Positions 7,181 through 38,228 are shown, counted from the first letter of the stretch. The stretch: DNA of 64,000 nucleotides from Mobula hypostoma (GCF_963921235.1 NC_086097.1:110486001-110550000), one strand, 5' to 3'. Numbers and translations: made by a program. Notes: generated by a model from the sequence alone, not told the origin.

Positions 7181-7187
7181 ATTTTAA

Positions 7188-8300
7188 AAGCACAAACACG
7201 AGGAAATCTGCAGATGCTGGAAATTCAAGCAATACACATAAAAATTGCTGGTGAACGCAGCAGGCCAGGCAGCATCTATAGCAAGAGGTACCATCGACGT
7301 TTCGGGCCAAGACCCTTCATCAGGACTAACTGAAGGAAGAGAGAGTAAGAGATTTGAAAGTGGGAGGGGGAGGGGGAGATCCGAAATGATAGGAGAAGAC
7401 AGGAGGGGGAGGGATGGAGCCAAGAGCTGGACAGGTGATTGGCAAAGGGGATATCAGAGGATCATGGGACAGGAGGCCTAGGGATAAAGAAAAGGTGGAG
7501 GGAAGCCCAGAGGATGGGCAAGGAGTTATAGTGAGAGGGACAGAGGGAGGAAATAGAGAGAGAATAAATAAATAAATAGATAAATAAGGGAAGGCGTACG
7601 AGGGGGAGGTGGGGCATTAACGGAAGTTAGACAAGTCAATGTTCATGCCATCAGGTCGGAGGCTACCCAGACGGAATATAAGATGTTGTTCCTCCAACCT
7701 GAGTGTGGCTTCATCCTGACAGTAGAGGAGGCCGTGGATAGATATGTCAGAATGGGAATGGGACATGGAATTAAAATGTGTGGCCACTGGGAGATCCTGC
7801 TTTCTCTGGCGGACAGAGCGTAGGTGTCCAGCGAAACAGTCTCCCAGCCTGCGTCAGGTCTCGCCAATATATAGGAGGCCACATCGGGAACCCCAAACAC
7901 AGTATATCACCTCAGCCGACTCACAGGTGAAGTGTCGCCTCACCTGGAAGGATTGTCTGGGGCCCTGAATGGTGGTAAGGGAGGAAGTGTAAGGGCATGT
8001 GTAGCACTTGTTCCACTTACAAGGATAAGTGCCGGGAGGGAGATCAGTGGAAAAGGATGGAGGAGGGGGGACAAATGGACAAGGGAGTGGCGTAGGGAGC
8101 GATCTCTGCGGAAAGCAGAAGTGGGGGGGATGGAAAGATGTGCCTCGTGGTGAGATCCCGTTGGAGGTGGCGGAAGTTACGGAGAATTATATGTTGGACC
8201 CGGAGGCTGGTGGGGTGGTAGGTGAGGACTGGGGGAACCCTATTCCTAGTGGGGTGGCGGGAGGATGGGGTGAGAGCAGATGTGCGTGAAATGGGAAAGA
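7188..8300 (-). mobile_element. Penelope-like retroelement 3' part with GIY-YIG remnant and intact hammerhead core in the terminus
   Basis: Minus strand encodes the same GIY-YIG region as 4965-5310. The terminus reads gttagtcCTGATGAagggtcttggcccGAAACGTCgatgg (7292-7327, reverse complement). Confidence 0.88.
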
Positions 8301-9729
8301 TATTTTATTGTATTTCTCAGTTCTACTGTAAAAGCCTGCAATCTCAAGATAACATACGTACTTGGATAATAAATTTACTTAGAACTTGTGTCTTTCTAAC
8401 AGTAGAGAACTGCCATAAAGCAAATGGTAGACAAGCACTCTATGATTCTCATTAATGGACAGTGCTCAGTCAAATAACTTCTTATGCAAGAGGTAATATT
8501 GTCCAATGCTAGAGAAATACTCTGGGGCTGACAACTGTGGTTTCTGCTATTAGACTACCACATGCCAATTGGATGCAGATTATTTTTTAAGGTGTACTCT
8601 ACATCATGAGTGGGGAAAATGTACATCATCAGCCTTTCAAACTACTTTGAAATATTCCAGATAGATGGGATTCTTCCAATTTTTTAAATAGCTGTGATGA
8701 TTTTCTTGAAGAAAAGTGCGAATAGGTTCCTTGTCAGTGCTAAACCACTGCCTGTCTGCATTGAAACCTATTCTACAGCTATCCGATGACAACCAGGACC
8801 GATAGAAGGTGCAAACAAGTGCCAAAGCTGACTAATACTAACGTTTAATACTTTAAGCCGTTAGTTATATCATGCTTTCATTGTGTGTTTTTTGTAGATA
8901 AAGGACAGGAATGATAATTGTGTGGTGGCAAATTTGGTGGTTTTCTGTTCCACAAAACCCTGAAGGAAGCTGGACAGTTTGATAAGGTGGTTAAGGAGGG
9001 ACACTCCTATAGAGCAAGGTGCAGAATATCAGAACAAGGAGGTGTACAAAATTAGTTTGGCAACAGCCAGATACCCTGTCGAGTTTTGGTCAGCGCCAAG
9101 TAGAAAGGATGTGGTTGTGCTTGTGATAGTGTAGAGGATGCTGCAAGGCTGAAGATTGTCCTTATGATGAAAACCTGTTTGGGTCTGGAGGGTTTTCTCT
9201 GGTACAAAGGAAGCGGAGGGGAGATTAGATTGAAATGGATAAAATTAAGAGAAATGTAGACGTGACAAATGAGTCACAGAGTCATACAGGTTACACTCTT
9301 TCAAGCAGTCACTTTACCCTAACTAATCCATGCCAACCAAGCCTGCAGTTGGCCCATATCAAAGAGTCAAAGTAATCTTATTATCAAAGTATGTACACAG
9401 TATACAACCCTAAGGTTTGCCCTCCAGCGGGCAGCCACAAAACAAAAAACCACCATGAAACCTGTTCAAAGAAAACATCAAATACCCAAAACATGAAAAA
9501 AAGAAGAAATTGTGCAAATAGCAAAAAGCAAGCAAGTAACACACAGAGTATTAAACATCAAACCGCAGAGAACTCGAAACGGTCAAGGAATGTTCAGTTT
9601 AGTTCAGTCCAGCACTGCGTCATTTGTTGCAAGTAACACACAAAGTATTAAACATCGAACCGCAGAGATCTTGAAACGATCTAGCAGTGTTCAGTTTAGT
9701 TCAGTCTAGCACTGCGTCATTTGTTGACT

Positions 9730-10355
9730 GCTTTCCAAATGCTGATAGATCCTATCTCTCAGAATCTCCTCCAGTAACTTTCCCGTTGCTGATGTTTGGC
9801 TCACCAGCCTGTAGTTCCTTGCCTTGCCTTGGAAGACTTTCTTAAAAGAAGGTACAACATTAGCCACCCTCCATCTTTCTAGTACCATACTCACAGATAA
9901 TGAAGAAACAAAATTCTTTACCAGAGCCCGAGAGTGAGGAACAACCTGAGGTTTGGATGATTTAAGTGCCAGGCTAGATTGAACAGTCCTACCTTTTTCC
10001 ATAACTATATTAAAGCTAATATAATTATGGGCAGTAGTCTTAGAGTGCTCCCCGACTGACACATCATTTGCCCATCCTCAATTCCCAATAGGAGGCTGAG
10101 TGTGGCCCCTTCTCTTGTAGGTTTTTCCTACATATTGCTTGTGAAAACTTACCCTACATACTTAACAAATTCTGCTGTATCTAATCCCTTAGCCCCCTGG
10201 CAGTCCCAATCAATATCAGAGAAATTAAAATCACCCCGACATAATAAGTCAATTATTCCTACACCTCTCTGCAATCTCCCTCCATATTTGCTTCTCCAGC
10301 GTTGTGCTGACTACTGGGGGCCTATAGTGCAATCCCATCAAAGTGATCACCCCTT
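9730..10355 (-). mobile_element. Old CR1 ORF2 fragments (continue at about 13433-13625 after the LTR insertion)
   Basis: ORF 9706..10062 contains WRVANVVPSFKK..QGKARNYRLVSQTSATGKLLEEILRDRIYQHLE. The sequences on either side of the LTR join into contiguous CR1 endonuclease-region sequence. Confidence 0.7.
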
Positions 10356-13300
10356 TGTAACCAAGGTTAATCAAACCCTAAGTTGTAATGTTAGAAATTT
10401 CTACCTGTGGAGGAATGAAAAGGAGATAGACTGATTAAAAAAAAATAATTTGAAAAAACATGCGAGGGCGGGAAGGCTGGACACAGGCCGGACAAGGAGA
10501 CAAAAACGCAGCACCAATTAGAAGCTGAAGACATGAACTGTTAAGAGTAGAATTAGTAGTGAGTAACTTTAACCTACTAACTTGAAACCCTCAGGGTGAA
10601 AATCCTGGAGGGGAGACAATAGTGATAAAAGATTTATTGAAGCTATAGCTATAACATACAGCAGCTATTATGAGATAATATCGACAGAGACCAGCGCCCA
10701 ACATCCCTACCGTGTAGTCGGGAATTAGTTCTACAAAATCATAAGTCTGTGAATTGACTTTCTGTGGATGATAAACTATTTCATTCCAATGAACCAAGAA
10801 GCAAAATGTTCCAATGAGACAGAGAAAGGATGGTAGGGTACAGGAACCATGGTGTACAAAGGCTGTTGTAAATCTAGTCAATAAGAAAAGCTCATGAAAG
10901 GTTCAGAAAGCTAGGTAATGATAGAGAGCTAGAAGATTATAAGGCTAGCAGGAAGGAGCTCAAGGAAGAAATAAGGAGAGCCAGAAGGGGCCATGAGAAG
11001 GCCTTGGTGGACAGGATTAAGGAAAACCCCAAAGCACTCTACAAGTATGTGAAGAGCAAGAGGATAAAACATGAGAGAATAGGACTAATCAAGTGTGACA
11101 GTGGGAAAGTGTGCATGGAACCGGAGGAGATAGCAGAGGTACTTAATGAGTGCTTTGCTTCAGTATTCATTACGGAAAAGGATCTTGGCGATTGTAGGGA
11201 TGACTTACAGCGGACTGAAAAGCTTGAGCATGTAGATATTAAGAAAGAGGATGTGTTGGAGCTTTTGGAAAGCATCAAGTTGGATAAGCCACCAGGACTG
11301 GACGAGATGTACCCCAGGCTATTGTGGGAAGTGAGGGAGGAGATTGTTGAACCTCTGGTGATGATCTTTGCATCAGCAATGGAGACGGGAGAGGTTCCAG
11401 AGGATTAGAGGGTTGCAGAGGTTGCTCCCTTATTCAAGAAAGGGAGTAGAGAGCGCCCAGGAAATTATAGACCAGTGAGCCTTACTTCAGTGGTTGGTAA
11501 GTTGATGGAGAAGATCCTGATTGAATCCTTACGAGCCTCATTGAATTTTTTGAGGATGTGACTAAAGAGTAGATGTAGTGTATATGGATTTCAGCAAGGC
11601 ATTTGACAAGGTACCGCATGCAAGTCTTATTGAGAAAGTAAGGAGGCATGGGATCCAAGGGGAAATTGCTTTGTGGATCCAGAACTGGCTTGCCCACAAA
11701 AGGCAAAGAGTGATTGTAGACAGGTCATATTCTGCATGGAGGTTGGTCACCAGTGGTGTGCCTCAGGGATCTGTTCTGGGACCCCTACTCTTTGTGATTT
11801 TTATAAATGACCTGGATGAAGAAGTGGAGGGATGAATTAGTAAAATTTGCTGATGACACAAAGGTTCGAAGTGTTGTAGATAGTGTGGAGGGCTGTCAGA
11901 GGTTACAACAGGACATTGATAGGATGCAAAACTGGGCTGAGAAGTGGCAGATGGAGTTCAACCCAGGTAAGTGTGAGGTGGTTCATTTTGGTAGGTCAAA
12001 TATGATGGCAGAATATAGTAGTAACGATAAGACTCTTGGCAGTGTGGAGGATCAGAGGAATCTTGGGGTCCGAGTCCACAGGACACTCAAAGCTGCTCTG
12101 CAGGTTGACTCTGTGGTTAAGAAGGCATACGGTGCATTGGCCTTTATCAATCGTGGGATTGAGCTTAGGATCCGAGAGGTAATGTTGCAGCTATATAGGA
12201 CCCTGGTCAGACCCCACTTGGAGTACTGTGCTCAGTTCTGGTTGCCTCACTATAGGAAGGATGTGGAAACCATAGAAAGGGTGCAGAGGAGATTTACAAG
12301 GATGTTGCCTGGATTGGGGAGCATGCCTTATGTGAATAGGTTCAGTGAACTTGGCCTTTTCCTTTGGAGCAGTGAAGGATGAGAGGTGACCTGATAGAGG
12401 TATATAAGATGATGAGAGGCATTGATCGTGTGGATAGTCAGAGGCTTTTTCCCAGGGCTGAAATGGCTAGCACGAGAGGGCAGTTTTAAGGAGCTTGGTA
12501 GTAGGTAGAGAGGAGATATCAGTGGTATGTTTTTTTTACGCAGAGAGTGGTGAGTGCATGGAATGGGCTGCTGGCGAAAGTGGTGGAGGCAGATACGATC
12601 GGGTCTTTAAAGAGACTCCTGAACAGGTATATGGAACTCTGAAAAATAGAGGGCGATGGGTAACCCTAGGTATTTTCTAAGGCAGGGACATGTTCGGCAC
12701 AGCTTTGTGGACCAAAGGGCCTGTATTGTGCTGTAGGTTTTCTAGGTGAACCACCCAAGATGACGAATCAGCACGGGAACGAAATGTATAATGACGTAGA
12801 GGATTTAATACCGTTGGATGTATAAGTTTATTTTAAATTCGAAGAATCCGAATTGATTTTCTGCAGGAACTGATTATTTTTGTAAAGACTTTGATAAGTT
12901 ACTGAATGAGATTTATTTTGTTTAAGAATTGGAGAATCGTTGTTAAACTGTGTATATATAATTTGAATTTAAACTTGTAGATATACTGCCTGGAACTGAA
13001 ACTGAAGTTAACTATCACACTTGACAATAGGAATGATATTTGATTTTCTAACTAACTAGGGATGAGTAAAAAGGAAAGCTTAGTCTGTAAACTTTTAAAT
13101 TGGGCATAACACTAGATCTAATTAGTCTGAGAAATTGGAATAACAAAGGTTATTCTAATGAATATCACTGATTCTAACTAAACAGGAATTTGGCTTTTGT
13201 TGACATCTAAGATTTGGAACCTAAACAGAATGTTGAATTGTTCCTGCTCATGTAATATATTTTGTACATATTGTTTTTTCTTATTTTCAGAAGTGTGTGG

Positions 13301-13432
13301 TTTTGATTCACTGCCTCCTTCTCATACCAAGAACCTTCTATTGGCCTATTAGCACCTAGTGTTATTTGATTTTCCCAAAAGAGTGTGACGATTAGCCACA
13401 CATGATAAGACCAGTGCTACACAGGTGTTACA
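10356..13432. mobile_element. Solo LTR-like element (about 1.1 kb without the insert), TG...CA termini, 4-bp TSD, split by a CR1 insertion
   Basis: Starts TGTAAC (10356) and ends GTTACA (13432), a 6-bp terminal inverted repeat. Flanked by cctt at 10352-10355 and 13433-13436. Confidence 0.75.
10806..12745 (+). mobile_element. 5'-truncated CR1 LINE (ORF2 linker plus RT, disrupted)
   Basis: ORFs 11004..11408, 11578..11835 ([24 protein letters not shown]) and 11807..12382 (KFADDTK, RPHLEYC, ERVQRRFTRM), followed by a CR1 3' tail. Confidence 0.95.
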
Positions 13433-13644
13433 CCTTTCTTAAACCTAAATTCTACATATATAACCTCACTGGTGTTCCCACAAGAACATCATCTCTAAGT
13501 ATTTCAGTATCATACTCTCAAATCAAAAACACAACTCTCTTCCCCTGCTTGCATACACCCCTTTCAACCCTGTAGCATCTGAATCTAAACCAGTTTGATT
13601 ATCGCTGACATATGACCTTTTCCAATGCTGCCCCCTCAATGTGG

Positions 13645-13960
13645 ACTGCACAGTCGTGTAGCAGTTAGCACAATCCATTTATCAGCGATCAACGACCAGG
13701 GCTCAATTCCCACCGCTGTCTGTAAGGAGTTTGTACTTTCTCCCAGTGACCATGTGGGTTTCGTCTGGGTGCTCCGGTTTCCTCCCATGTTCCAAAGACA
13801 GGTTAAGTTAGAGATTCGCGGGCATGCTATTTTGGAGCCAGAGGCGTGGCAATATCTACGGGTTGCACAGCACATTCCCTGCTAATTAGATTTGACACAA
13901 ACAATGCATTTCACTGCATGTTTCAATGTACATATGACAAATAAAGCTAATTTTAAACTT
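13645..13960 (+). mobile_element. V-SINE/HE1-like SINE
   Basis: tRNA-like head (tagcagttagc...ggctcaattccc) and V-domain tgggtttcgtctgggtgctccggtttcctcccatgttccaaagac. Confidence 0.8.
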
Positions 13961-14201
13961 ACAGCATACCCTTTTAAAATCAAACCACCATGGATATGAA
14001 CAGCACAGAAAGAGGTCCCTTTAAGCCCACCCCATCCTTGCCAGCAGTGATGCCTATACATGCTAATCTCATTTGCCCATATGAGGGCCAAACCCTACTG
14101 TGCTCTTCCTAACTAATCCTAACTTTTAAACATTGTAATTGCCTCCACCACCTCATTCCAGATATTCACTGCCCTCTGAAAAAATGTACCTCTCAGAACT
14201 T

Positions 14202-14795
14202 CAAGCAACCCCCCAAAAATGCTGGTGGAACGCAGCAGGCCAGACAGCATCTATAGGAAGAAGTACAGTTGATGTTTCGGGCTGAGACCCTTCGTCAGGA
14301 CTAACTGAAAGAAGAGACAGTAAGAGATTTGAAAGTGGGAGCGGGAAATCCACAATGATAGGACAAGACAGGAGGGGGAACGGATGAAGCTAAGAGCTGG
14401 ACAGTTGATTGGCAAAAGGGATACAGAGTTGGAGAAGGGGTTGGATCATGGGACGGGAGGCCTAGGGAGAAAGAAAGGGGGAGGGGAGCCCAGAGGAAGA
14501 TGGAGAGCAGGCAAGTAGTGATTGTGAGATGGACAGAGAGAGAAGAAAAAAAAGGGGGGGAATAAAAATAAATAAGGGATGGGGTAAGAAGGGGAGGAGA
14601 AACACCACCTTATATTCTGTCTGGGTAGCCTCCAACCTGAGGGCATGAACATCGATTTCTCTAACTTCCGTTAATGCCCCTCCTCCCCTTCTTACCCCAT
14701 CCCTCCCACTTTCAAATCTCTTATGTCGATTGTACCTCTTCCTAGAGATGCTGCCTGGCCTGCTGATTTCACCAGCAACTTTGATGTGTGTTGCA
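14202..14795. mobile_element. Penelope-like fragment with inverted termini
   Basis: 14202-14600 is a PLE terminus on the minus strand (hammerhead core at 14266-14302). 14601-14795 is the GIY-YIG end plus an internally deleted terminus on the plus strand. Confidence 0.8.
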
Positions 14796-17330: not shown

Positions 17331-18137
17331 CTTTACTCTGTCAATTGTACAAAAACTCAGTTCATCCAATATATAAGTTCACTGGATAAGCTGAATGTTG
17401 CAGCTGACATTCATTGGCTCAGATACTAATCTGTTGTTAATTGTTAAGAAAAAACATCTGAGCATTGTGAAATAAGTCTAGACGATAGATGCCAGCTCTC
17501 CAAGTGTAGGAAAGCACAAGAAGGTAATTTAAAAGTACTGATTCATTTTTCATTTATTTTGACATTCACATCAAACACTTCTCAACAGCTGGAAATTCAG
17601 CCTAGAAATTCAGCACTGTTGGCACTAAAGTGGCACTGCATAGGACACTGTGTGACTTGGTCCACCATGCAGAGGATTTTCAAGAATGGTTTCCATGCAA
17701 TGTTTTCAGGGCAAAGGTTAAGCAATGCCATCTAACCTTTCTGGTAATACACTACACATACCAGTAGGGTCATTTCAGGAGTCCCAGCCACCACAGAATC
17801 ACTGAAATCTAAGGAGCTGGTTTTAAAAAAAGCTGATTTGTCCACTAATTCTTAATTTGTACCCTTGTTGGTCACCGCAAATGCAACATGCTGGTTGTTT
17901 TTATATACTTGATGATAGCTTCTACCCCCACCATTCTATCAAGCCATGAGCAACAGTATCTCATCTCTTGCCAGCGGAAAAAACTCATCCAAACCTCTTA
18001 GTACCTTAATTATATGATCCATGTGCTGAAGGAAATAAGTTGCTCCTGTTCATCCCACTGCGGCTTCCCATAATTTCATACATCACATTTCTCCTCCACT
18101 TCTGCGGTATAGACAACTCCACCCAAGTCACTCACTC

Positions 18138-21400: not shown

Positions 21401-21492
21401 CAATTATTAAATATATGATAAACCTGACAGCAGAATTAGAAAATAAAACAAAAATGAGACAGATGTAATTACTGACAGTCCTGTATACTCAC

Positions 21493-21600
21493 CACAGCCT
21501 CCTGGACTAGAAAGATATCTGCTCCATTTGTAAAGAGCCTGCTAGGAATCAAAATTTGGACAGCCAGACCAGGTGCACTGCTTGGGCCCATGTTTATAAC
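21493..21600 (-). CDS. ITGA9: Integrin alpha-9 internal coding exon (108 nt, phase 0/0): VINMGPSSAPGLAVQILIPSRLFTNGADIFLVQEAV
   Basis: Acceptor ccttcattattttattgaag and donor GTG|gtgagt. Carries the integrin calf-2 NxGPS motif and matches recalled human ITGA9 VYNTGPSTLPGSSVSISFPNRLSSGGAEMFHVQEMV. Confidence 0.93.
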
Positions 21601-23759
21601 CTTCAATAAAATAATGAAGGAAAAATAAGGCATTGTTAATCCTTTATAAATAAATAAATTATGTTACACACGGCAGCAGGAGATCCAGGCTTAATGGTAA
21701 AAGTCTGGTTTGATGGTACAACACACAATATTTATGCTTCCCTTCGAAGTGTAGTGTAAAAATCTTAGATTATCTTGCCATCTCAGAGCTCCTTCAGAAG
21801 GTCATTTTTCAATGTGGAGGCTTGGTTCAAGAGAAATTTCCAATAAATCATTTTTCTTCTCTAGGGAACATTAACATATGAACTCTTATTTCTCTCACTG
21901 TGATAACAATTTCCAAGCCTTAAGAGAGATGGTACATGCTTTTTCTTTTTCTCTCTCTTGTTTATTCTCTATATGCTTTCAGGCTACAAATTCCAAATGG
22001 GGACCAAGGCACTGCAGGGATATAACAAAAGTCAACTTTCTGTCGGTTCTAATTACAGAAGAGAAAAGAGAGGCACAATGGGGAAGCCAGCTGAGCTGCT
22101 ATCTTACGGCTCCAGAAACCAGTCTCCACAGCTATATGTGAGGCAAGGGGCAGAACATAAAAGTGTTGATGGGAATTTGATGAACAAAAACTGGAATGTA
22201 TGGAGTTAGTGTTAATGGGTGCTTGATGTTTGGCATGGTCTTGTGAACCAAAGGGACTATTTTTGTGTGGTGTGACACAATCACACTAAATACAAACGTT
22301 TGTACAATCGTCATTCAATTTATTTCCTGAGTAATGCTGCTTGTCTCTCAAGCTTAAACCCCACCTTAGAATGAGTCCACATGGAGGCCATTTTAGGTTT
22401 CCTGACGGAAAATAAGCATATTATTTCGATATAACATCACTTGAAAATTCTGGCTGGAAGTTCACTAAAATCAATACAAAATGTTACTGATTCTTGAAAG
22501 GCATTTGATGGTCTCAACTGTATAAACACAAGCACAACTATTTGATGCATTCCCTTGATGTGGCCCCACAAGTTACCCATGCTATAATACATGAATCCCA
22601 TGGGGTGAGTTTCTTACCACTTCAGTAAAACACAAAATAGACACAGTAGAAAATAAGTGAAAGGGGCTGTTACCTTAGAACTTGACTAGAAGTTGATTTT
22701 GGTGAACATCCAGCCAAAACTGATGCTCAAATGTTCAAAACATGCCGCAGTGCAAAAGGTGAAACTTGACAACTTTACAATGTTACCATGAAAGAGCCAA
22801 TTATATAAACACTTGAAGAAGTGTACCAGAGTTCAAAAATAATATCACTGCAAAATAAATCTTCAGGAAAAGATTCTTCTATAATTTACAGTAAGACTGA
22901 TTCCAGGAGCAGAATGATTCAAGACAGCTGTCAAAGGAACATTACCTTTAGACTGATGTAAATGAAAGCTGTCACTAGGGCTCAGAAGTAAGAGATTTGG
23001 AAGAGAAAAAGTTCTTGGTATCTAAATATATTTGCTTAAAGGGATGATTTATACCACAAGTGCTTGTAGATTAAGACTGTACATCCCTGCCAAGAAGTTG
23101 TACTAACTCAGAACGTATATTAAGAAACAGACTCTGATCAAAATAATTCCAAGTATCCGGGACGTTTAAAGGCTTTGCAGGACTCAATCAGAAGAGAATG
23201 TAGTGAATGTAGTGTACTACAAGCTAAGTCTACCCAAGCTTCTGGCCTTTTAGGAAACAATACTATTTAACACATCATTTGCAGTAATTGAAGTATTTTC
23301 TTTAAAGCAGTACATTCTCACAGTTCTCTTAGGTCATGCTGCTGCACAGTAATTTTACACATTTTCCTGGGCTTCCCTTTACCACTTACCATTTCTTAAC
23401 CTCGGAGGTCTGAACCATAGAGTCAGAGTATTACAACAAGGAAACAGGCCACTCGACCCAACTCATCCGGCCAACCAAGTGCCTAGCGAAACGAGTCCCA
23501 TTCACCCCATTTGGCGTGATGCTGTTACAGCTCAGAGTGTTCCAGAGTTCAGAGTTCAGTTCTGGCGCCATTCTGTAAGGAGTCCGCATGTTCCCCACCT
23601 CCCCCAGCTCCCATGGAATGCCTGGGTTTTCCCCGGGTGCTCTGGTTTCCGCCCACAGTCCACAGATGTACTGGATAGGCTAATTGTAAATTTGTCTATT
23701 GTCCCGTGTTAATCAGGTTTGCTGGGAGTTGCTGGGGTGATGTGGGTCGAAGTGTCAGA

Positions 23760-24120: not shown

Positions 24121-24452
24121 CTGTGCTATATCGCTAAATAAATAACGAGGTAACAGATAAGATGAATGATTACATACTTTTCCCCAGGACAAGGGAGTCT
24201 AAAACTGGAGCATATTTATTTAAGGTGAGAGGGAGGGGACCTGATGGGCATTTTTTTTTCTACACAGACGGTGGATTGTATTTGAAACAAGCTGCCAGAG
24301 GAAATGGTAGAGGGAAGTACAATTACAATGTTTAAAAGCCATTCGGATGGGTGGATGGGTAGATGGGTAGGAGGGACAAGGGATCATATTTGATCTCTTT
24401 AATATACTCATCTGAGGTAACTCAGTGAAGCAACCAACTGAGGGGAATCTGT

Positions 24453-24756
24453 AAACACAAAATAATCTGCAGATGCTGGGGTCAAAGCAACACTCACAAC
24501 ACGCTGGAGGAACTCAGCAGGTCGGGCAGCATCCGTGAAAACAATCGATTGACGTTTCAGGCTGGAACCCTTCGTCAGGACTGTAGAGGGAAGGGGCAGA
24601 GGCCCTATAAAGAAGGTGGGGGGAGGGTGGGAAGGACAAGATAGGGCCTCTGCCCCTTCCCTCTACAGTCCTGACGAAGGGTTCCAGCCCGAAACGTCGA
24701 CCGATCTTTTCCACGGATGCTGCCCAACCTGCTGAGTTCCTCCAGCGTGTTGTGAG
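24453..24756. mobile_element. Fold-back Penelope-like mini-insertion with 14-bp TSD and two hammerhead motifs
   Basis: TSD tgaggggaatctgt at 24439-24452 and 24757-24770. Inverted arms at about 24490-24608 and 24641-24758. Confidence 0.9.
24666..24703 (+). ncRNA. Minimal type-I hammerhead ribozyme motif (PLE-associated)
   Basis: cagtc-CTGACGA-a-GGGttccagCCC-GAAAC-GTC-gaccg. Stem I gtc/gac; predicted cleavage after C24698. A mirror copy lies on the minus strand at 24546-24583. Confidence 0.65.
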
Positions 24757-25799
24757 TGAGGGGAATCTGTGGCAGCTGTTTTCTAATCCATAAAACTGTA
24801 GCTAGAAACTTAAACCGAGCTCCTCAAAGGTCTGTGTGGACAAACAGCATGGGTCTTCAGCCACTTTTAATCTCCAAATACGGACCAGTGCCATCTGCAA
24901 ATATAACACCCTGTCAAATTAAGGATGGGAAGTGGGCATTTCGCTGGTTGGGGCCTACAGACAATGCTTACATATGTCATTAGAGGCTTTTAAGAGACGT
25001 TTCGATAGGCGCATGAATGTGAGGAAGATGGAGGGATACGGGCAATTTGTAGGTAGGAGGGATTAGATTTTGGGGGGTTTTGATTTACTGTTTAGTTGCT
25101 TCAGCTCAGCACTGTGGGTCGAAGGGCTTGCTCGCGTTCTCTGTTCTTCCACTTCTTACTGTCTCTATATAACACCAAGAACAGTTCCATTTCTTGATCT
25201 TCATTACTAAGATCCTTCCCCTCTATTACTTTTACCATATTTATTATGTCAGGACTTATCAACTTCCTCTTCCTTTTTGCTATCCTGGAATATTTATTTC
25301 CCAAATGTGGCCAGATAGCAACAATGTCCCTGTAACAGCTATTAACTTTAACTCATCTATTTCTATTTGTGCCTTAAGTGGACCTACATTCTGTGAATTC
25401 TAAATACACTCAAATAAAGGACCTTCAGTTACGTCTTTTTTATATACTATTTTTCTTTTCTCTGACTCTTATTCGAGTACAACATAATGTGAGGAGAACC
25501 AGAAAATCCTGGATGAACTCAGCATGTCAAGCAATATTTCTTACTTGCTGATTTTTTTTATTGCTTTGCTTTTATTGCAGATTTCTATCATCTAAAGTTT
25601 TATTACTTTCCCTATGCATATTGTCCCTTCATGACAGATTAATATATAATGACCCTGCACTGTCACTTTATCCTTTCGTATAAAGTTTAATTTTTTTTCT
25701 TACCAAAACCTGCCACTAATGGTTTAGCCCTAACATAGCTTAATTATTTGATTCCATTCACATTACGCAATGCTGCAAGGTCCAGTGACTGGAGCAACT

Positions 25800-26237: not shown

Positions 26238-26346
26238 CTGAAATGTCAAGTTGAATGGTTGAAAGAAACAGGACATATCTTCCATCTGAATAAATTTTGA
26301 AGCATCCACTGAATCACCATAAAGGAAGGAAGCTGGAGAAATAGAC
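26238..26346 (-). CDS. ITGA9: Integrin alpha-9 internal coding exon (109 nt, phase 2/0): (G)SISPASFLYGDSVDASKFIQMEDMSCFFQPFNLTFQ
   Basis: Acceptor ctttatttctctccaaaatag and donor CAG|gtgaat. Matches recalled human ITGA9 GIMSPTSFVYGESVDAANFIQLDDLECHFQPINITLQ, including the Cys and the N-x-T sequon. Overlaps track ORF 26118..26309. Confidence 0.95.
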
Positions 26347-27451: not shown

Positions 27452-28540
27452 ATGCAGTCAGTGTGGATTGGAAATAATATCTCTACCTCATTGACAATCA
27501 ACACTGGTGCACCTCAAGGATGTGTACTTAACTCACTGCTCTACTCTCTCTACACCCATGAATGTGTGTACAGGCACAGCTCAAAAGCCATCTATAAATT
27601 TTATGATGACACAACTATTGTTGGCAGAATTTCAGATGGTGATGAGACAGAGTACAGGAGCGAGATATACAATATCAGCTGGTTGAGTGGGGTTGCAGTA
27701 ACAACCTTGCACTCGATGTCAGTCAGACCAAAGAACTGATTGTGGTCTTCAGAAAGGGTAAGACAAGGGAACACACACCAGTCCTCATAGAAGGGTCAGA
27801 AGTGGAGAGAGTGAGCAACTTCAAGTTCCTGGGTATCAACATCCCTGAGGACCTACCCTGGGTCCAAAATATTGATGCAGCTATAAAGAAGGCACAACAG
27901 CAGCTATTTTTCATTAGGAGTTTGAAAAGATTTGATATGTCACCAAAGACACTTGCAAATTTCTACAGATGTACCGTGGACAGCATTCTAACTGGTTGTA
28001 TCACTCAAACAAGAGGAATTCTGCAGATGCTGGAAATTCGAGCAACACACATCGAAGTTGCTGGTAAACGCAGCAGGCCAGGCAGCATCTCTAGGAAGAG
28101 GTACAGTCAACGTTTCGGGCCGAAACGTCGACTGTTCCTCTTCGTAGAGATGCTGCCTGGCCTGCTGCATTCACCAGCAACTTTGATGTGTGTTGGTTGT
28201 ATCACTGTCTGGTATGGGGCAGGGGGCAGGGGGCAGGACCACTGCACAGGATCGAAAGAAGCTGCAGGGAGATGTAAACTCAGTCAGCTCCATCATGGGC
28301 ACTAGCCACTGTAGCATCCAGGAGCAATGTCTCAAAATGGTGGCATCCATCATTAAAGACCCCATCAGCCAGGACATCCCCTGTTCTCATTGCAACTATC
28401 AAGAAGGAGGTACAGGAGCCTGAAGACACACACTCAATGATTCAGGAACAGCTTCTTCCCCTCTGCCATCAGAATTCTGAATGGACATTGAACCCATGAG
28501 CACTACCTTATTATTTTTTTGCACTACTTATTTATTTATT
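27452..28540 (+). mobile_element. Rex1/Babar-clade LINE RT and 3' end, disrupted, with a PLE mini-insertion inside
   Basis: TINTGAPQGCVL.SLLYSLYTHEC, KFYDDTTIVGRIS, VERVSNFKFLG, KKAQQQLFFIRSLKRF, FYRCTVDSILTGCIT. Confidence 0.9.
28006..28193. mobile_element. Fold-back Penelope-like mini-insertion with 13-bp TSD
   Basis: TSD tggttgtatcact at 27993-28005 and 28194-28206. Inverted arms of about 75 bp meet at cgtttcggg|ccgaaacg. Confidence 0.9.
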
Positions 28541-28544
28541 TTTC

Positions 28545-30290: not shown

Positions 30291-30309
30291 GTCAGTGCTT
30301 GAAGACGCT

Positions 30310-32537
30310 GATTCCATTACCAATCCCCTCTGAGCTGGGCGGCTATTGTTGAGAGTGGGCCAGCGGTGAGCGCGGGAGGGTCAGGCTTTGACTCAAGAGG
30401 CTTCAGTGAGAAGAAGCTGAGGCCAAAAAAACAGGTTAGAGTATTTGGTCTTGGCTGCCCATTGTACAGTGCAGGCAGGATGGCAGATATGGCAGTAGAA
30501 TGCTTCTCCTGTAGGATGTGGGAATTCATGCAACCTGATAGTCTCCTTGATGACTACATCTGCGGGAAGTACAGCTCATGAAAGACTGCATTAAGGAGCT
30601 GGAGCTGGAATTGGATGAACTTGGGATCATCTGGGAGGCAGAGCATTTGATAGATGTGACTATTGTGTAGATGGTTACACCCAGAGTTCAGAATTCGGGG
30701 AGTAGATGTGTGAACACTGAGCGGTTGCAGAATAAAGGGAGAAAGAAGTCAGTGCAGGGTCCCCTTGTGGCCATTCCCCTCAGCAACAGGTATTCCCCTT
30801 TGGATACTGCTATCCAAAGGGTAGCCTTATGGATGACCTATCTGGGTAAGGCAGCAGCAACCTGACCAATAGCACTGTGGTCAACTTTGAGCCTCGGAAG
30901 GGTAGGGTGAAGTCATGCAGAGCAATAGTCACAGAGGACTCGATAGTTAGAGGGATAGATAGGAGATTCTGCGGCAGCAAGGGAGACACCAGAAGAGTGT
31001 GTTGCCTCCTGGGTGCTAGGGTCCAGGATATCTCTGAGCGGTTGCAGAATATTCTTGAAGGGGAGGGTGAGCAGCCGGACGTCGTGGTACATATTGGTAT
31101 CAATAACATAGGCAGGAGATGGGTAGAGGGCCTACGCAATAAGTTTAGGGAGTTAGGAAGGGGGTTGAAGAGCAGTACCTCCAAGGTGGCAATCCCTGGA
31201 TTAGTCGCAGTGCCACGAGTAGGGAAGGTCAGAACAGGAAGACAGCACAGTGGGCAGGGTTTCAAGTTCTTGGATTATTGGAACCTTCTCTGGGGAAGGG
31301 GTGACCTGTACAAGTGGGACGAGTTGCACCTGAACTGGTGGGAAACCAATATCCTGGGAGGGAGGTTTGCTAATGCTTTTGGGGAGGGTTTAAACTAGAT
31401 TTGCAAGGGGGTGGGAACCAAGTTGAAGAGGCAGAGGATGGGGCAGTTGGCGCACAAGTAGTGACAGCTTGTAGGGAGTTTATGGGGAAGGATAGGCAGA
31501 TGATACAGCAAAAAAAGCATTCAGCCAGATGGTTACAGGAAAGGGCCAATAACTCTACTGGGGGTTTTTTACAGATGCCCCCAATAGTAACAGACATCGA
31601 GGAGCAGATAGGGAGGCAGATTCTGGAACAGTACAATAATAATAGGGTTGTTGTGATGGGTGATTTTAATTGACTGGCATCTCCTTAGAACAAGGGGTTT
31701 AGATGGGGTGGAGTTTATTAGGTGTGTTCAGGAAGGTTTCTTGATGCAATATGTAGATAAGCCAATTAGAGGAAAGGCTGTACTTAATCTGGTATTGGGA
31801 AATGAACCTGGTCGGATGTCAGATCTCTCGGTGGGAAAGCATTTTGGAGGTAGTGATCACAACTCTATCTCCTTAACCATAGCACTAGAAAGGGATAGGA
31901 GCAAACAATTTGGGAAAGGATTTAATTGGGGTAGGGGGAAATATGATGTCATTAGGCAGGAACTGGGAACATAAATTGGGAGCAGATGTTCTTAGGAAAA
32001 TGCACAGCAGAAGTGTGGCAAATGTTCAGGGAACATTTGCATGGAGTTCTGCATAGGTATGTTCCATTGAGGCAGAGAAAGGATGGTAGGGTTAAAGAAC
32101 TGTGGTGTACAAACAACATAAAAAAATCTAGTTAAGACGAAAAGAAAAGGTTCAAGAAGCTAGGTAATGTTAGAGCTCTAAAAAATTACAAGGGTGCCAG
32201 GAAGGAGTTCAAGAATGAAATTAGGAGAGCAAGAAGGGGCCATGAGAAGGCCTCAGCGAGCAGGATTAAGGAGAACTCCAAGGCATCCGACAAGTATGTG
32301 AAGAGCAAGAGGATGAGCCATGTGAGAATAGGACCATTCAGGAGTGAGAGAGGAAACGTGCATGGAACTGGAGGATGTAGCAAAGGTACTTAATGAATAC
32401 CTTGCTTCAGTATTCACCACGGACAAGGACCTTGGCAATTGTAGGGATGACTCACAACGGACTGAAATGCTTGAATGTACAGACATTAAGGAAGGGGATG
32501 TGCTGGAGCTGTTGAAATGTATTAAGTTCAATAAGTT
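30310..32537 (+). mobile_element. CR1 LINE 5' portion (ORF1 Cys-rich plus SGNH esterase remnant, APE endonuclease remnant), ending at a CA microsatellite
   Basis: VECFSCRMWE...YICGK; IVTEDSIVRGIDRRFC...VCCLLGARVQDISERLQNILEGEGEQPDVVVHIGINNIG; VVVMGDFN; GGSDHNSI. Confidence 0.9.
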
Positions 32538-32918
32538 GCACGCGTACACACACGCGCACACACACACACACACACACACATACACACACACACACACATA
32601 CACACACATACACACACACGCACACACACACATACATACACACACACACACACATACCCACACACACACACACACACACCCACACATACACACACACACA
32701 CACATACTCACGCACACACTCACACACACACCCACATACACACACACACGTACACACACACCCACACACAGACACACACACACACTCACTCACACACACA
32801 CACATACTCACACACACACTCACACACCCACACACACACACACGTACACACACACACGCACTCACACACTCACTCACACACACACACACACACACTCACT
32901 CACACATACACACGCGCG

Positions 32919-32957
<39 letters not shown>

Positions 32958-33495
32958 TCACACACACACACTCACACACACACACATACACACACACTCA
33001 CTCACACACACACGCACACACACACACACACACACACAGACACACACTCACTCACACACACACACACACATACTCACACACACTCACTCACACACACACA
33101 CACGCACACACACACACACAGACACACACTCACTCACACACACACACACACACATACTCACACACACTCACTCACACACACACACACACACACATACTCA
33201 CACACCCACACACACAGACACACACACACACACACACTCACTCACACACACACACATACTCACACACACACTCACTCACACACACACACACACACACACA
33301 TACACATACACACACACACCCACACACACACATACTCACACACACACTCACTCACACACACACATACACTCACACACACACATACACACACACACACACA
33401 CATACACACACACACACATACACTCACACACACACATATACAAACACACACACATACACACACACACACACACACACATACACACACACACACAT

Positions 33496-33561
<66 letters not shown>
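32538..33561. repeat. Compound (CA)n microsatellite, about 1 kb, with CATA/CTCA/CGCA interruptions
   Basis: Directly visible. It produces the spurious HT/CV-repeat ORFs. Confidence 0.99.
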
Positions 33562-33563
<2 letters not shown>

Positions 33564-33809
33564 ACTGGTTTTATTGTTATGTATTGCATTGTACTGCTGC
33601 TGCAAAACAACAACAGGTTTCACCACACATGCTGGTGATGTTAAGCTGGTGATGTTAAGCCTGATACTGATCTGCTACAGTTGGATGCAAAGACTCCTTT
33701 TAATGACCCAGAAAAGCTTTTGTGTTCTTATTACAAGTTGAAAAAGTATTTAAAAATTGCAACTGACATGGACTAAATTTCAGCTATTGTACTTTAAAAA
33801 CAGAATCAG

Positions 33810-34945
33810 GTACACTTTCACCACTTTACATCACATGAAATCTGTTGTTTTGTGGAAGCAATAGAGTGCAAATATACACTGCCAAAATGAAATAACAATG
33901 TTGTATCCACATGCTCATGTATCATTCAGAAATCTGACGGCAAAGTGCAAGAAGCCGTCGTTAAAACATTGAGTATTGATCTTCAGGCTCCTGTACCTCC
34001 TCCCTGATGGTAGGTACATGTCCCAGATGATGAAGGTCATTAATGACAGATACAACCTTCCTGAGTTGCTGTCTCTTGAAGATGTCCTGAATTGTGAGAA
34101 GGTTTTAACCGTGGTGGAACTGGCTGAGATGATGACCGTCTACAGTCTCCTGTGATCCTTTGTACTGGACCCTCCATACCTGTAATGCAACCAATCTCAA
34201 TGCTCTCCACCCTACATCTATAGAACATACACAAATCTCTTCAAACTCTGAATAAGTACAGCTGCTGGTTTGCCTTCTTCATGTTTTAGACCCAGGACAG
34301 ATCCTCTGAGATGCTGACACCCAGGAATTTAAAGCTGATCACCTTTGTCACCACTGACCTCTCAATGTGGGCTGCTACATGTTCTTCTGAATTCTGTTCT
34401 TTGAAGTCCACAGTCTAGTCCTCGGCCTTGCCTAGATGTTGTGACACTGCTCACCCAGCTGATCTACCTCAATGCAGTACACCATCAGACATCACTGCCA
34501 TCAGAGATTTTACCAACAATATATTATCAGCAATTTTTATATATGGTGTCTGAGCTGTGTCTAGACACAGACAGGAGTGTAGAGAGAGTAGAACTGTGAG
34601 CTAAGCACACATCGGTGAAGAGCCCTGTGTTAATTGTCAGCGATGAGGAGGTGTTATCACTGATCCATATTGACTGTGGTCGCCCAATGAGGAAGCCGAG
34701 GATCCAGTGCAGAGGTACAGGTTCAGAAGCTTGGCGATTTACCCTGATCTATAAAGAACAACCTGATATATGTTTTGATCATGCCTAGTTGCTCCAAAGC
34801 GCAGCGGTGAGCCAGTGAGATTATGTCTGCCGCAGACCTGCTGCAGCGCTGGATGAACTGCAGCATTTCCTGGTCCTCACTGTGGCAGGAGTTAATTTTA
34901 AATATAGACAACCTCCTCTTGAAGCACGTCATTACAGCAGATGTG
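33810..34945 (-). mobile_element. Decayed Rex1/Babar-type LINE
   Basis: Reverse-complement similarity to 27452-28540 (FYRCRVESI..GCIT; cctgtacctcctccctgatggta). Confidence 0.7.
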
Positions 34946-35504
34946 AGTGCTACCAGTCAACAGTCCAGGGACAGCAGTGATTCATTGCTGTAACTCTGAC
35001 TCCGCTTAAATGCAACTTCCCCACAGGGGATGCCAAATGACAAACTCATTCCTCTCTAACACACATAGCTACTACTGCCTCAGTGATTTAACATCACCAA
35101 GACCACACACCTTCCCCAGCTACCACATGTAAACTGGCATGAGGGGGTGCAGGAGGAGGCAGAATTAATCTTCTCCCCCTTCACCATTATGATGGTGTAA
35201 ATTATACCAATTAAGGTCCAACTAAGATCCTCTTCAGTTTTGTCTCCATAAACAAGCAACATCTTGTTTTTGCATGAGGTTTACAAGCATAGCTCTCTTC
35301 TTTGATCTTTTCCTCCATCTGCTGTGATGGTGAAGAACTCACTCCATTGCGTCAGTGTTTCGAGATTCCTTTTCAACTCACGCTTCCTCTTGGGAGCAGC
35401 AGGAGCTACCATACATGAACGATGAACTGTGGCCCAGGAAAACTAATCAGCATTGTGGTGAGTTCTTTGGAGAATACACACCATAGACAGGAAACTGAAC
35501 TGGT

Positions 35505-35845
35505 CTAGTCATATAAACAGCACGGCTACCACAGCTGGTCAAAGGCTAGGAATCCTGCAGTGTGTAATTCACCTCCTGTCTCCCCAAAGTCTATCCGCCA
35601 TCTACAAGGCATAAGTCAGGACTTTAATGGAATACCTGCCACTCGCCTGGATGAGTACAGCTCCATCAACCCTCAAGAGACTTAATACCATCCAGTACAA
35701 GGCAGCCCACTTGATTGGTACCCCTTCCACAAGCATCCAATTCCTCCACCATCGACGAACAGTTGCAGCAGTGTGTATTATTTACAATATGCACTGCAAC
35801 CACACACCAAAATTCCTAAGGCAGCACCTTCCAGGCCCACATCCC
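35505..35845 (+). mobile_element. CR1/L2-group LINE RT C-terminal fragment of a different family
   Basis: ORF 35627..35893: MEYLPLAWMS..PSTL.RLNTIQ.KAA.LI...LHHRRTVAAVCIIY.MH. Confidence 0.7.
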
Positions 35846-35924
35846 GTAAATGAAAAAGAGAACAAGTCTACTGCAATGCCATACAGGTCCTGAAAGGTCA
35901 AGACCAGAAACTTTACTTATTATT

Positions 35925-36770
35925 TACTTTTTTACACGTAACAGGTTCTACTGGCCAATGAGCTCACAGCGCCCAATCACACCCGTGTAACTAATTAATC
36001 AATGAGCTCACAGCGCCCAGTCACACCCGTGTAACTAATTAATCAATGAGCTCACAGCGCCGTTACACCCAACTAATTAATCAATGAGCTCACAGCGCCC
36101 AGTCACACCCATGTAACTAATTAATCAATGAGCTCACAGCGCCCAGTCACACCCGTGTGACTAATTAATGAGCTCACCGCCACACACCCGTGTAACAATA
36201 GGTTACACGGGTGTGTGGCGGTGAGCTCATTAATTAGTCACACGGGTGTGACTGGGCGCTGTGAGCTCATTGATCAATGAGCTCACAGCGCCCACACGCC
36301 CGTGTAACTAATTAATCAATGAGCTCACAGCGCCCAGTCACACCCGTGTAACTAATTAATCAATGAGCTCACAGCACCGTCACACCCGTGTAATTAATCA
36401 ATGAGCTCACAGCGCCGTCACACCCATGTAACTAATTAATCAATGAGCTCACAGCGCCCAGTCACACGTGTAACTAATTAATCAATGAGCTCACAGCGCC
36501 TAGTCACACCCGTGTGACTAATTAATCAATGAGCTCACAGCGCCCAGTCACACCCGTGTAACTAATTAATCAAGGAGCTCACAGCGCCCAGTTACACCCG
36601 TGTGACTAATTAATCTAAGAACGCTTTGACTGAGGGAGGAAATGGGAGCACCCGGAGGAAACCCATGTGGTCATAGGGGAGAACGTACAATTTCCTTACC
36701 GGTAGTGATGGGAATCAAACCCCAATTGTGGGCGCTGTAGTTTACACTAACCACTAAGATACCATGCCAC
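35925..36770 (-). mobile_element. V-SINE/HE1-like SINE whose 3' region has expanded into a minisatellite
   Basis: 36620-36770 is the reverse complement of the SINE V-domain and head (ggagcacccggaggaaacccatgtggtca...gagaacgtaca). The tail (ttat)n lies near 35915. Confidence 0.8.
35956..36615. repeat. 44-bp minisatellite (about 14 direct units plus about 2 inverted units)
   Basis: Unit caatgagctcacagcgcccagtcacacccgtgtaactaattaat with shorter deletion variants. Inverted block at 36202-36274. Confidence 0.97.
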
Positions 36771-37601
36771 CCCAATTGAGTACATTTACATAAAGCGATG
36801 CCCCAGCAAGGCAGCATTCATCATCGCCCATCCCGACCACCTAGCCATGCTCTCTTCCTGCTCCCACTGTTCAGGCAAGAGGGACAGATACCTCAGATCC
36901 AACACCACCAGGAAGGAAGTTGGCGATTGGGCAATGCTCCCAGTTCCATCCCCTTCCCCCTCACTAGATTCCCATCCTATTGTGATACACATTATCACAT
37001 CCCTTATTTACCTTTGTGTTCCTGCTGGTCACCCTCTAGCCACAGTCTCCATTTTCACCCTCTCCTGCCCCCACCATTCTATTTTGTTCACTTCCACCAT
37101 AAGACACAGGAGCAGAATTAGGCTATACAGCCCATCAAGTCTGCTCCATCAACCACCCATCTTTCTCTGTCTCTCAATTCCACCCTCACCTTCCATTCAC
37201 ACATTCTGCTCGACCTGCTGAGCGCCTCCCGGGGTTTGTTTCTAAATCTGACACTATACTAAGCTGTCCTTCACAGAAAAGGCACAAAGGAGAAGTCATC
37301 TGACAATATAAATGCTTTCTACATCTTGCGGTAACAAAATGGGCATTGCTTTGCCTTGCTGTGGTCCTTCCTGTTTGAATATTCTTACATTGTGTGTTCA
37401 GTACTTGCACCTGTCCACTTTTTCTTCTTTGATTCTGCACCTACTGTACATCCCAGCATGGTCAGATCACCCGTCAATCCTACTGATGTGCTGACTACAA
37501 CAATTAGATCATCTCCATGCTCCTTGTTATTTGTGGAGACCATCAGTCAGACTCCCTTGCCACTATTTCATTCCATTTTGATGAGCAGATATTGAGTATT
37601 G

Positions 37602-37888
37602 TGGCACAATAGCACAGTGGTTAGCATAACACTTTACAGTACAGGTGACGCAGGTTCAATTCCTGTTGCTGCCTGTAAGGAGTTTGTACGTTCTCCCCGT
37701 GACCGCGTGGGTTTCCTCCAGGTGCTCCAGTTTCCTCCCACAATCTAAAGATGTACTGGTTGATAGGTTAATTGGTCATTGCAAATTGTCATGTGATTAG
37801 GCTCAGATTAAATTGGGGGGGTTGCTGGGTAGCATGGCTTGAAGGGATGGGAGGCCATATTCCCTCTGTATCTCAATAAATAAATAAA
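37602..37888 (+). mobile_element. V-SINE/HE1-like SINE, near full length
   Basis: ggcacaatagcacagtggttagc...ggttcaattcc...gcgtgggtttcctccaggtgctccagtttcctcccaca...(taaa)n. Confidence 0.88.
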
Positions 37889-38192
37889 TTCCACCATGGT
37901 TCACTCATTCTCTGAGCATTAATGCTTGAGATAATGGACAAGAATCGCTTACTCAATATTAAAAGTGAAATGGTAAGTATGAAAAACAAATCTCCATGCA
38001 GTATTTATGCCTGCCCACACCACCAGTCCTTGCTCTGATGTCTCCAGACCTAATGCAGTTTTCTAAGCCTCTTCTTGACCCTGATCTCTCATCTGCTTTC
38101 CAACCTCTGATCATCTGATCTCTCACTCTCATTGTTGTTAGTGCCTTGAAATAGTGGTCCCAACCTGGGGTTCTATAGACCCCTTATATATT

Positions 38193-38228
38193 GTCCTGAT
38201 GAAGGGTCTCGGCCCGAAACGTCAACTG
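38193..38228 (+). ncRNA. Minimal type-I hammerhead ribozyme motif (PLE-associated)
   Basis: CTGATGA (38196-38202), extra A, stem II GGG..CCC, GAAAC (38216-38220), GTC triplet (38221-38223). Stem I is imperfect in this copy. Activity is untested. Confidence 0.6.

What the first reader, a model, noticed from the sequence alone, without database searches (positions are those of the whole stretch)
7292..38228. Family of minimal hammerhead-ribozyme motifs in Penelope-like termini, several in the ITGA9 pre-mRNA sense
Seen: the motif (a)gtc-CTGA(T/C)GA-a-GGG...CCC-GAAAC-GTC-gac recurs with an intact core at 7292-7327(-), 24546-24583(-), 24666-24703(+) and 38193-38228(+). It is nearly intact at 14266-14302(-) (ATC triplet) and decayed at about 3729, 5570, 49113 and 52135. 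Established: Penelope-like elements carry minimal type-I hammerheads whose stem III is too short to fold alone and which are proposed to cleave as dimers. Inference: three copies are in the sense of the ITGA9 primary transcript, so two could in principle pair in cis and cut the intron. Stem I has mismatches in most copies, so they may be dead.
Basis: partly seen in the sequence, partly recalled or inferred. Interest (0 to 1): 0.7.

Follow-up and report, generated by a model that had tools for sequence, protein, structure and literature searches.

The report
Penelope hammerhead relics in ray introns
The repeated motif is a real minimal hammerhead-ribozyme sequence carried on broken tail pieces of a very abundant Penelope-like jumping gene inside the introns of a ray's integrin alpha-9 gene; this is a known kind of element, and these damaged copies are likely inert toward the host transcript.

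Summary
The motif is real. A hammerhead descriptor hits exactly the five named copies, against 0.1 expected by chance. They are 3' ends of a Penelope-like retrotransposon, with a GIY-YIG-like ORF end, target duplications and inverted partners, inside introns of ITGA9 on the minus strand. Such minimal hammerheads are published (PMC4209133). The cis-dimer idea fails locally. The sense copy 24583 is predicted to be locked in a 118-bp hairpin with its antisense twin and lies in a different intron from the other two. The only same-intron sense pair, 14302 and 7327, is 7 kb apart and damaged in stems I and III. The proposed test site, 24698, is antisense to ITGA9. No copy keeps the family's 4-bp stem I, many changes sit at CpG sites, and there is no covariation. 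The family is hugely abundant: 138,800 contig records were laid on 601 bp. This scan has reported the same family many times elsewhere in this genome. One side lead, weakly supported: a spliced intron in the element's terminal repeat that ends at the hammerhead's 5' edge.

The parts
7292..7327 (-). Minimal hammerhead motif, core intact, sense to ITGA9; two private changes in the 3' arm of stem I (positions 1.3 and 1.4); predicted cut after 7296
   Evidence: at 7292 and 7293, 92-98% of laid depth in three runs reads the other letter
7190..8304 (-). 5'-truncated Penelope-like element: ORF remnant 8304-7620 (Cys-rich linker, GIY-YIG-like end, one in-frame stop, frameshifts), pyrimidine-rich 3' region, hammerhead, tail of about 100 nt
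   Evidence: tblastn with P0017-P0019, E down to 5e-104; 3' end from loose ends at 7191-7194
14266..14302 (-). Minimal hammerhead motif, sense; AUC triplet breaks the ACGU palindrome, and G1.1 is A
14196..14794 (.). Composite insertion: sense arm 14597-14196(-) plus inverted partner 14596-14794(+), which holds the ORF end and a tail with the 5' half of the hammerhead deleted
24546..24583 (-). Minimal hammerhead motif, sense, second subfamily; stem I closing pair C.A; predicted to be sequestered in a 118-bp hairpin
24666..24703 (+). Best-preserved motif (3 Watson-Crick pairs in stem I, then a mismatch), antisense to ITGA9; predicted cut after 24698
24439..24770 (.). Head-to-head insertion 24453-24756 (arms 94% identical over 118 bp) with a 14-bp target duplication at 24439-24452 and 24757-24770
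27993..28206 (.). Head-to-head pair of half motifs joined inside stem II, with a 13-bp target duplication, inserted in a LINE fragment
38193..38228 (+). Minimal hammerhead motif, antisense; part of a 132-bp insertion that begins at stem I, with a 14-bp target duplication at 38181 and 38327; stem I closing pair C.A
3726..3866 (+). Decayed tail copy; A6 and G12 changed
4923..5702 (+). Older subfamily copy with GIY-YIG-like remnant 5024-5305 and a dead motif at 5566-5603
49108..49163 (+). Decayed motif; A9 and G12 changed
52039..52268 (-). Decayed tail copy, sense, core broken; motif at 52131-52168
39086..39175 (-). ITGA9 coding exon (about residues 741-770 of P0001)
26238..26346 (-). ITGA9 coding exon (about residues 771-806)
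21493..21600 (-). ITGA9 coding exon (about residues 807-842); no further exon found down to position 1

Best explanation
These are 5'-truncated tail fragments of a very abundant Penelope-like retrotransposon that landed in ITGA9 introns, each carrying the element's minimal type-I hammerhead motif, and they are likely neutral relics that do not cut the pre-mRNA. In the source element the motif has a 4-bp stem I (shown from family reads), a 3-4 bp stem II with one extra base before it, and a self-complementary ACGU in place of stem III. It would cleave only as a dimer of tandem pseudo-LTRs, probably with help from the element's protein (inferred from PMC4209133 and PMC11167929). The insertions were likely made by the element's RT and GIY-YIG nuclease, which left 13-14 bp target duplications and inverted partners (duplications and inversions shown). 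After insertion the copies decay, often at CpG sites (changes shown; deamination inferred).
For: Element identity: the ORF remnant upstream of 7327 is 80-92% identical to P0017 over its two main stretches. Four such relatives hit Pfam GIY-YIG at E 5e-4 to 2e-3 and carry RT-like YIDD-type motifs upstream. Target duplications were found at 3 of 9 loci tested, and inverted partners at 3 loci. Abundance: 138,800, 61,869 and 50,673 contig records were laid on 601 bp in runs of three organisms. Decay: 4 of 9 full-length motifs have core hits; G1.1 is A in 5 of 12 segments; the stem I closing pair survives in 4 of 9; covariation is no higher than shuffles (231 of 500). In the main subfamily, stems differ from the majority at 7 of 68 cells against 19 of 318 in the tail. 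Orientation: 5 sense against 7 antisense segments, p=0.77. Sense copies are predicted to be out-competed by pairing with antisense copies: hairpin MFE -257.9, duplexes -102 to -128 kcal/mol. In print, monomers are inactive and dimers weak (PMC4209133), and the anole element's hammerhead shows no cleavage without protein (PMC11167929).
Against: The core is clean in the main subfamily (0 of 44 cells differ; P=0.066 against the tail rate). It is also far better kept than the tail across all copies (7 of 110 against 197 of 720), although that figure is inflated by subfamily differences, misaligned ends and my motif-based selection of copies. The Pfam GIY-YIG scores are below the curated cut-off (16.9-20.9 bits against 22.6), and the window's own three fragments hit nothing. 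The energy model ignores tertiary contacts and also ranks the best copy's dimer (-12.7) below its MFE (-27.7); no active dimer was run as a control. No cleavage assay and no raw RNA reads were available.
Confidence: 0.9

Rival explanations
1. Two sense copies pair in cis in the ITGA9 pre-mRNA and cut the intron, which modulates splicing or output.
For: Three full motifs are sense. 7327 and 14302 share one intron. 7327 keeps all core bases and its closing pair, and is mostly free of long-range pairing in a local fold. Domesticated intronic hammerheads exist in amniotes (PMC6155905, passages).
Against: The cut sites are 6,975 nt apart. The dimer has 3 of 4 stem III pairs and one C.A closing pair, at -3.0 kcal/mol. 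7327 has lost two family stem I pairs. 24583 is in another intron and predicted to be locked in a hairpin. Antisense copies in the same intron pair far more strongly. There is no covariation.
Confidence: 0.02
2. The 7327 copy is cut occasionally in trans, by pairing with one of the very many family transcripts in the nucleus, perhaps aided by element protein, as an incidental cost and not a function.
For: Its core, ACGU palindrome and closing pair are intact. The family is very abundant and present in the contigs of a run guessed to be RNA (6,586 records).
Against: Its 3' stem I arm offers two Watson-Crick pairs plus a wobble, then a mismatch. Published activity is low even in cis. No RNA reads began or ended at the cut site in anole data.
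Confidence: 0.06
3. The motifs are non-LTR retrozyme monomers (non-autonomous tandem hammerhead repeats), not Penelope termini.
For: Such elements were reported in one chondrichthyan (bioRxiv 10.64898/2026.07.22.740005). Some copies here are short and non-coding.
Against: No tandem units around any motif. The motif is contiguous with a GIY-YIG-like ORF end at three loci. It is the minimal, not the canonical, hammerhead form.
Confidence: 0.02

Closest known systems
Minimal hammerheads (min-HHR) in pseudo-LTRs of metazoan Penelope-like elements (Cervera and De la Pena 2014, PMC4209133; parts 1-2 of 4 of the text read, 2 of 3 supplement files searched)
   Same: Type-I layout, one base between A9 and 10.1, G10.1-C11.1 pair, palindromic 15.2/16.2 with no loop 3, 4-5 bp stem I, mostly solo truncated copies, and pairs 100-700 bp apart on opposite strands. 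Reported in Xena, Poseidon and Neptune elements of fishes, coelacanth and Xenopus.
   Different: Stem II is short (3-4 bp, against 7-8 bp in the Schistosoma family). The host is a ray; no shark, Callorhinchus, Leucoraja or Squalus entry was found in the two supplement files searched. Abundance looks far above the 4,000-9,000 reported for coelacanth and Xenopus (rough inference).
Canonical EN+ Penelope-like elements, Neptune/Nematis type (Craig et al. 2021, PMC8557442; introduction and passages read)
   Same: [quoted passage not shown]
   Different: No full-length copy in the window and no RT phylogeny, so the clade is assigned from the linker motif only.
PAc Poseidon element of Anolis (PMC11167929; passages and the second half of the main text read)
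   Same: Vertebrate Penelope-like element with a hammerhead about 100 nt before the tail end.
   Different: PAc's ORF starts at stem II. Here no conserved ATG lies there, and the tail frame finds only host gene models, no RT protein.
Domesticated intronic hammerheads of amniotes, RECK, CTCL and DTNB (PMC6155905, passages)
   Same: Type-I motif in the sense strand of a vertebrate intron.
   Different: Those are conserved across species. These are members of a high-copy repeat with private stem mutations.

Membership tests
min-HHR of Penelope-like elements | Core CUGANGA ... GAAA ... NUH | tested here: met
   Intact in 5 of 9 full-length motifs, broken in 4
min-HHR of Penelope-like elements | Extra base after A9 and a G10.1-C11.1 pair opening stem II | tested here: met
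   Extra A in all 5 intact copies; G-C in 4 of 5, G-U in 24583
min-HHR of Penelope-like elements | Palindromic 15.1-16.1 with no loop 3, allowing a dimer stem III | tested here: met
   ACGU in 4 of 5 intact copies, ACAU in 14302
min-HHR of Penelope-like elements | Stem I of 4-5 bp | tested here: met
   Met at family level (92-98% of depth restores pairs 3 and 4 at 7292-7293). None of the five intact-core copies keeps 4 contiguous pairs from the core.
min-HHR of Penelope-like elements | Covariation in the helices | tested here: inconclusive
   9 window copies: score 0.186, reached by 231 of 500 shuffles. Too few copies, and no genome held.
min-HHR of Penelope-like elements | Self-cleavage as a dimer | not testable with these tools
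   Needs an in vitro assay
EN+ Penelope-like element | GIY-YIG endonuclease at the ORF C-terminus with cysteines between GIY and YIG | tested here: met
   Relatives at 80-92% identity hit PF01541 at E 5e-4 to 2e-3, below the curated cut-off; CxxC sits before LLYIGE. Both structure models were too poor to use.
EN+ Penelope-like element | RT in the same ORF, grouping with PLE/telomerase RTs | tested here: inconclusive
   A YIDD-type motif lies upstream in P0017, P0019 and P0020 with no Pfam RT hit; a matching remnant lies at 60164-60488(-). No tree was built.
EN+ Penelope-like element | 5' truncation, inverted partner, target-site duplication | tested here: met
   Three head-to-head loci; 13-14 bp duplications at 3 of 9 loci tested
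EN+ Penelope-like element | Pseudo-LTRs flanking a full ORF | not testable with these tools
   No full-length copy in the window and no genome held
Neptune/Nematis clades | CX2-5CxxC linker between RT and EN | tested here: met
   C-x4-C-x2-C at about 8019-7998(-); definition
Non-LTR retrozyme | Tandem units each bearing a hammerhead | tested here: not met
   No tandem array overlaps a motif
Domesticated intronic hammerhead | Orthologous conservation across species | not tested

The most novel reading that the evidence does not exclude
The ray element's pseudo-LTR holds a spliceosomal intron of about 295 nt, running from the last codon of the ORF to the AG at the 5' edge of hammerhead stem I. 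This is the Drosophila virilis Penelope layout, here in a vertebrate. Splicing would then reshape stem I, and the roughly hundred thousand dispersed copies would seed host introns with splice sites, three acceptors of them sense in ITGA9. For: a joint 7327-7623 in 2 contigs of the RNA-guessed run and in none of 3 other runs; that run's depth relative to DNA falls about 3-8 fold across 7339-7611, while a second DNA run stays flat; P0031 and P0020 continue into non-element sequence right after the ORF's last residue. Against: the region is 79% pyrimidine and other AGs score as well; the window copies' donors score poorly; the joint is one base off the window's GT-AG; contigs cannot show RNA level; a different expressed subfamily could give the same dip.
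Probability: 0.3. Interest if true: 0.45.

Novelty: new member of a known kind. Interest (0 to 1): 0.15.

Why it matters
As found, it matters little. It extends a published class, the Penelope minimal hammerheads, to a ray family of extreme abundance, and the copies in ITGA9 look like decaying passengers. The family could serve as a high-power natural data set for an open question, what Penelope hammerheads do, because so many dated insertions allow tests of strand bias in introns and of truncation points. The possible intron abutting the ribozyme would show that the Drosophila layout also holds in a vertebrate element.

Tried and rejected
Rfam search: no hammerhead family at E<=10; the hits were miRNA models on hairpins. 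No whole genome is held, so no genome-wide consensus, count or strand-bias test was possible. A family pattern in metagenome contigs gave 0 matches. Sequencing runs: no RNA holder listed, and all 24 runs were contigs, so RNA ends at the cut site could not be examined. Pfam on the window's own element fragments and on two short ITGA9 exons gave nothing. PDB sequence searches gave nothing useful. Two AlphaFold models had mean pLDDT 36 and 43, so no fold search was run. The idea that the tail encodes the ORF's N-terminus, as in the anole element: one frame is open in the 7327 and 38193 copies, but searches returned only three Mobula host gene models and one unrelated bacterial-type protein; not supported. 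P0036 begins matching at the CAG before stem I, but this also fits a 5' truncation there. The all-copy core-versus-tail Fisher test (p=2e-8) was set aside as confounded. The third ITGA9 acceptor was scored one base off and corrected. The splice-site weight matrices in my scripts were approximate values from memory. Lunse et al. (PMC5785218) is not held; I saw only its citation and a summary in PMC6765202. Paper searches (6-30 listings shown each) showed no description of this family in cartilaginous fish and no vertebrate pseudo-LTR intron. Figures, one supplement file of PMC4209133, the supplements of the bioRxiv preprint, Repbase and Dfam were not seen and may contain it.

Full report
Observation. 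The motif is in the sequence at all five named places. A minimal-hammerhead descriptor finds exactly these five in 64 kb, against a mean of 0.1 and a maximum of 2 in 200 dinucleotide shuffles. BLAST and nhmmer with three copies as queries give 12 motif-bearing segments at 9 loci. Five have an intact core and four have core hits (3729, 5570, 49113, 52166). Three are partial: 14725(+), 28126(-) and 28111(+). Rfam has no matching hammerhead model at E<=10.

Host gene. A stretch at 21472-21663(-) finds 16 proteins; all 8 named ones are integrin alpha-9 of cartilaginous fishes. tblastn places three exons on the minus strand, 39086-39175, 26238-26346 and 21493-21600, all with AG/GT borders and matching the Mobula birostris protein P0001. 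The host is thus a ray close to Mobula. No further exon was found down to position 1. The full sense motifs are 24583 (intron 26237-21601), 14302 and 7327 (next intron) and the dead 52166. Over all 12 segments, 5 are sense and 7 antisense (p=0.77).

What carries the motif. The 7327 copy is the 3' end of a 1.1-kb fragment. Its upstream part aligns at 80-92% identity, over two main stretches, to a Mobula hypostoma protein, P0017. Four such relatives hit Pfam GIY-YIG at E 5e-4 to 2e-3, below the curated cut-off, and carry YIDD-type motifs upstream. The window's fragment has a C-x4-C-x2-C linker, the mark of Neptune/Nematis elements (PMC8557442), plus one stop and frameshifts. The same ORF end precedes the motif at 5024-5305 and 14597-14677. 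Three loci are head-to-head inversions, and 3 of 9 loci tested have 13-14 bp target duplications. These are standard Penelope insertion features. Laying contigs on 7150-7750 placed 138,800, 61,869 and 50,673 records from runs of three organisms. Summed depth of several million, against about 17 where one contig lies, suggests on the order of 100,000 copies. The tool warns that this is no copy number, so it is a rough inference.

Anatomy and state of the ribozymes. The layout matches the published min-HHR: core, an extra base after A9, G10.1-C11.1, and a palindromic ACGU with no loop 3 (PMC4209133). Family reads show that 92-98% of depth has other letters at 7292 and 7293, giving a 4-bp Watson-Crick stem I, so the 7327 copy has two private hits. 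None of the five intact-core copies keeps four contiguous stem I pairs. The closing pair survives in 4 of 9 full-length motifs, and covariation is at shuffle level. Many changes fall on CpG positions: G1.1 to A in 5 of 12, G12 to A in 3 of 11, C15.2 to T in 3 of 12, C17 to T in 3 of 12. In the six main-subfamily segments the core shows 0 of 44 departures against 19 of 318 in the tail (P=0.066), and the stems 7 of 68. The motif is therefore shared across subfamilies, as expected from selection in the source elements, while the inserted copies show no clear sign of being maintained.

The cis-dimer proposal. In the minus-strand transcript, the antisense twin of 24583 is made first and is predicted to pair 37 of its 38 motif bases in a 118-bp hairpin (MFE -257.9 kcal/mol). 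The remaining pair, 14302 and 7327, has cut sites 6,975 nt apart. Their dimer has 3 of 4 stem III pairs and one C.A closing pair, and evaluates to -3.0 kcal/mol against -27.5 for the best cofold. The inverted partner of 14302 is predicted to hold 6 of 9 bases of its 3' arm. Antisense copies in the same intron form duplexes of -102 to -128 kcal/mol with both. Caveat: the model has no tertiary terms, it also disfavours the best copy's dimer (-12.7 against -27.7), and no active control was run. In print, min-HHR monomers did not cleave and dimers cleaved weakly. The anole element's hammerhead needed the element protein, and no RNA reads began or ended at its cut site (PMC11167929). I put cis cutting at about 2%.

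Side lead. The run guessed to be RNA shows a joint 7327-7623 in 2 contigs that is absent from the three other runs. Its depth relative to DNA is 0.006-0.013 across 7339-7611, against 0.022-0.064 below and 0.025-0.039 above, while a second DNA run stays at 0.2-0.34. All 6 of 9 copies that keep upstream element sequence have a pyrimidine tract and CAG within 6 nt of the core. Of 16 related proteins, two gene models (P0031, P0020) continue into non-element sequence right after the ORF's last residue. That the P0031 junction is a natural exon border of its host gene is recalled, not tested. This fits an intron ending at stem I, as in D. virilis Penelope. Against it: the region is 79% pyrimidine, other AGs score as high, and the window's donors score poorly. 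The joint is one base off the window's GT-AG, contigs cannot show RNA level, and the run's subfamily mix differs. I give it 30%.

Comparison and verdict. It works like, and by every sequence feature I could test at family level is, a Penelope minimal hammerhead; cleavage itself is untested. My paper searches did not show this family described in cartilaginous fish, though a 2026 preprint reports hammerhead retrozymes in one chondrichthyan, and repeat databases were not available. Earlier notes of this scan describe the same family many times in this genome (81 notes fit the look-up); they are not independent support. Verdict: a correct catch of a known kind, with no evidence of a role in ITGA9. 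Interest 0.15.

Noticed in passing
window 7327-7623(-) and tables 2 and 5: Possible intron of about 295 nt in the element's terminal repeat, from the ORF's last codon to the AG at the 5' edge of stem I: a joint and a depth dip only in the RNA-guessed run.
   Followed up: partly
window 7327 (table 7): Loose ends with unrelated flanks pile up at 7327, the outer edge of stem I (402, 315 and 324 contigs in three runs). Many copies begin there; the cut site is not among the rows shown (2,235 rows hidden). The 38193 copy is one such case.
   Followed up: partly
window 28005-28197: Fold-back junction of two half motifs lies inside stem II at a short palindrome; 13-bp target duplication; inserted in a LINE fragment.
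   Followed up: partly
window 14701-14794(+): The inverted partner lacks the 5' half of the hammerhead (about 47 nt), apparently deleted between 2-base microhomologies and not at the cut site.
   Followed up: no
window 35956-36615: Minisatellite of 44-nt units (15 copies) with an internal inversion near 36200-36270 that forms long hairpins; source of spurious miRNA hits.
   Followed up: no
window 60164-60488(-): RT-region remnant of the same Penelope-like family (tblastn E down to 9e-32), with no hammerhead tail found near it.
   Followed up: no
proteins P0020, P0021, P0023, P0031, P0034, P0035, P0036: Several annotated ray gene models include pieces of this element's ORF end or hammerhead tail, either exonised or as annotation artefacts.
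   Followed up: partly
window 45098-47902(+) and 61458-62631(+): Long LINE ORF2-like remnants; the first has an endonuclease domain.
   Followed up: no
window 32546-33561: A 1-kb (CA)-type microsatellite array inside a LINE fragment.
   Followed up: no
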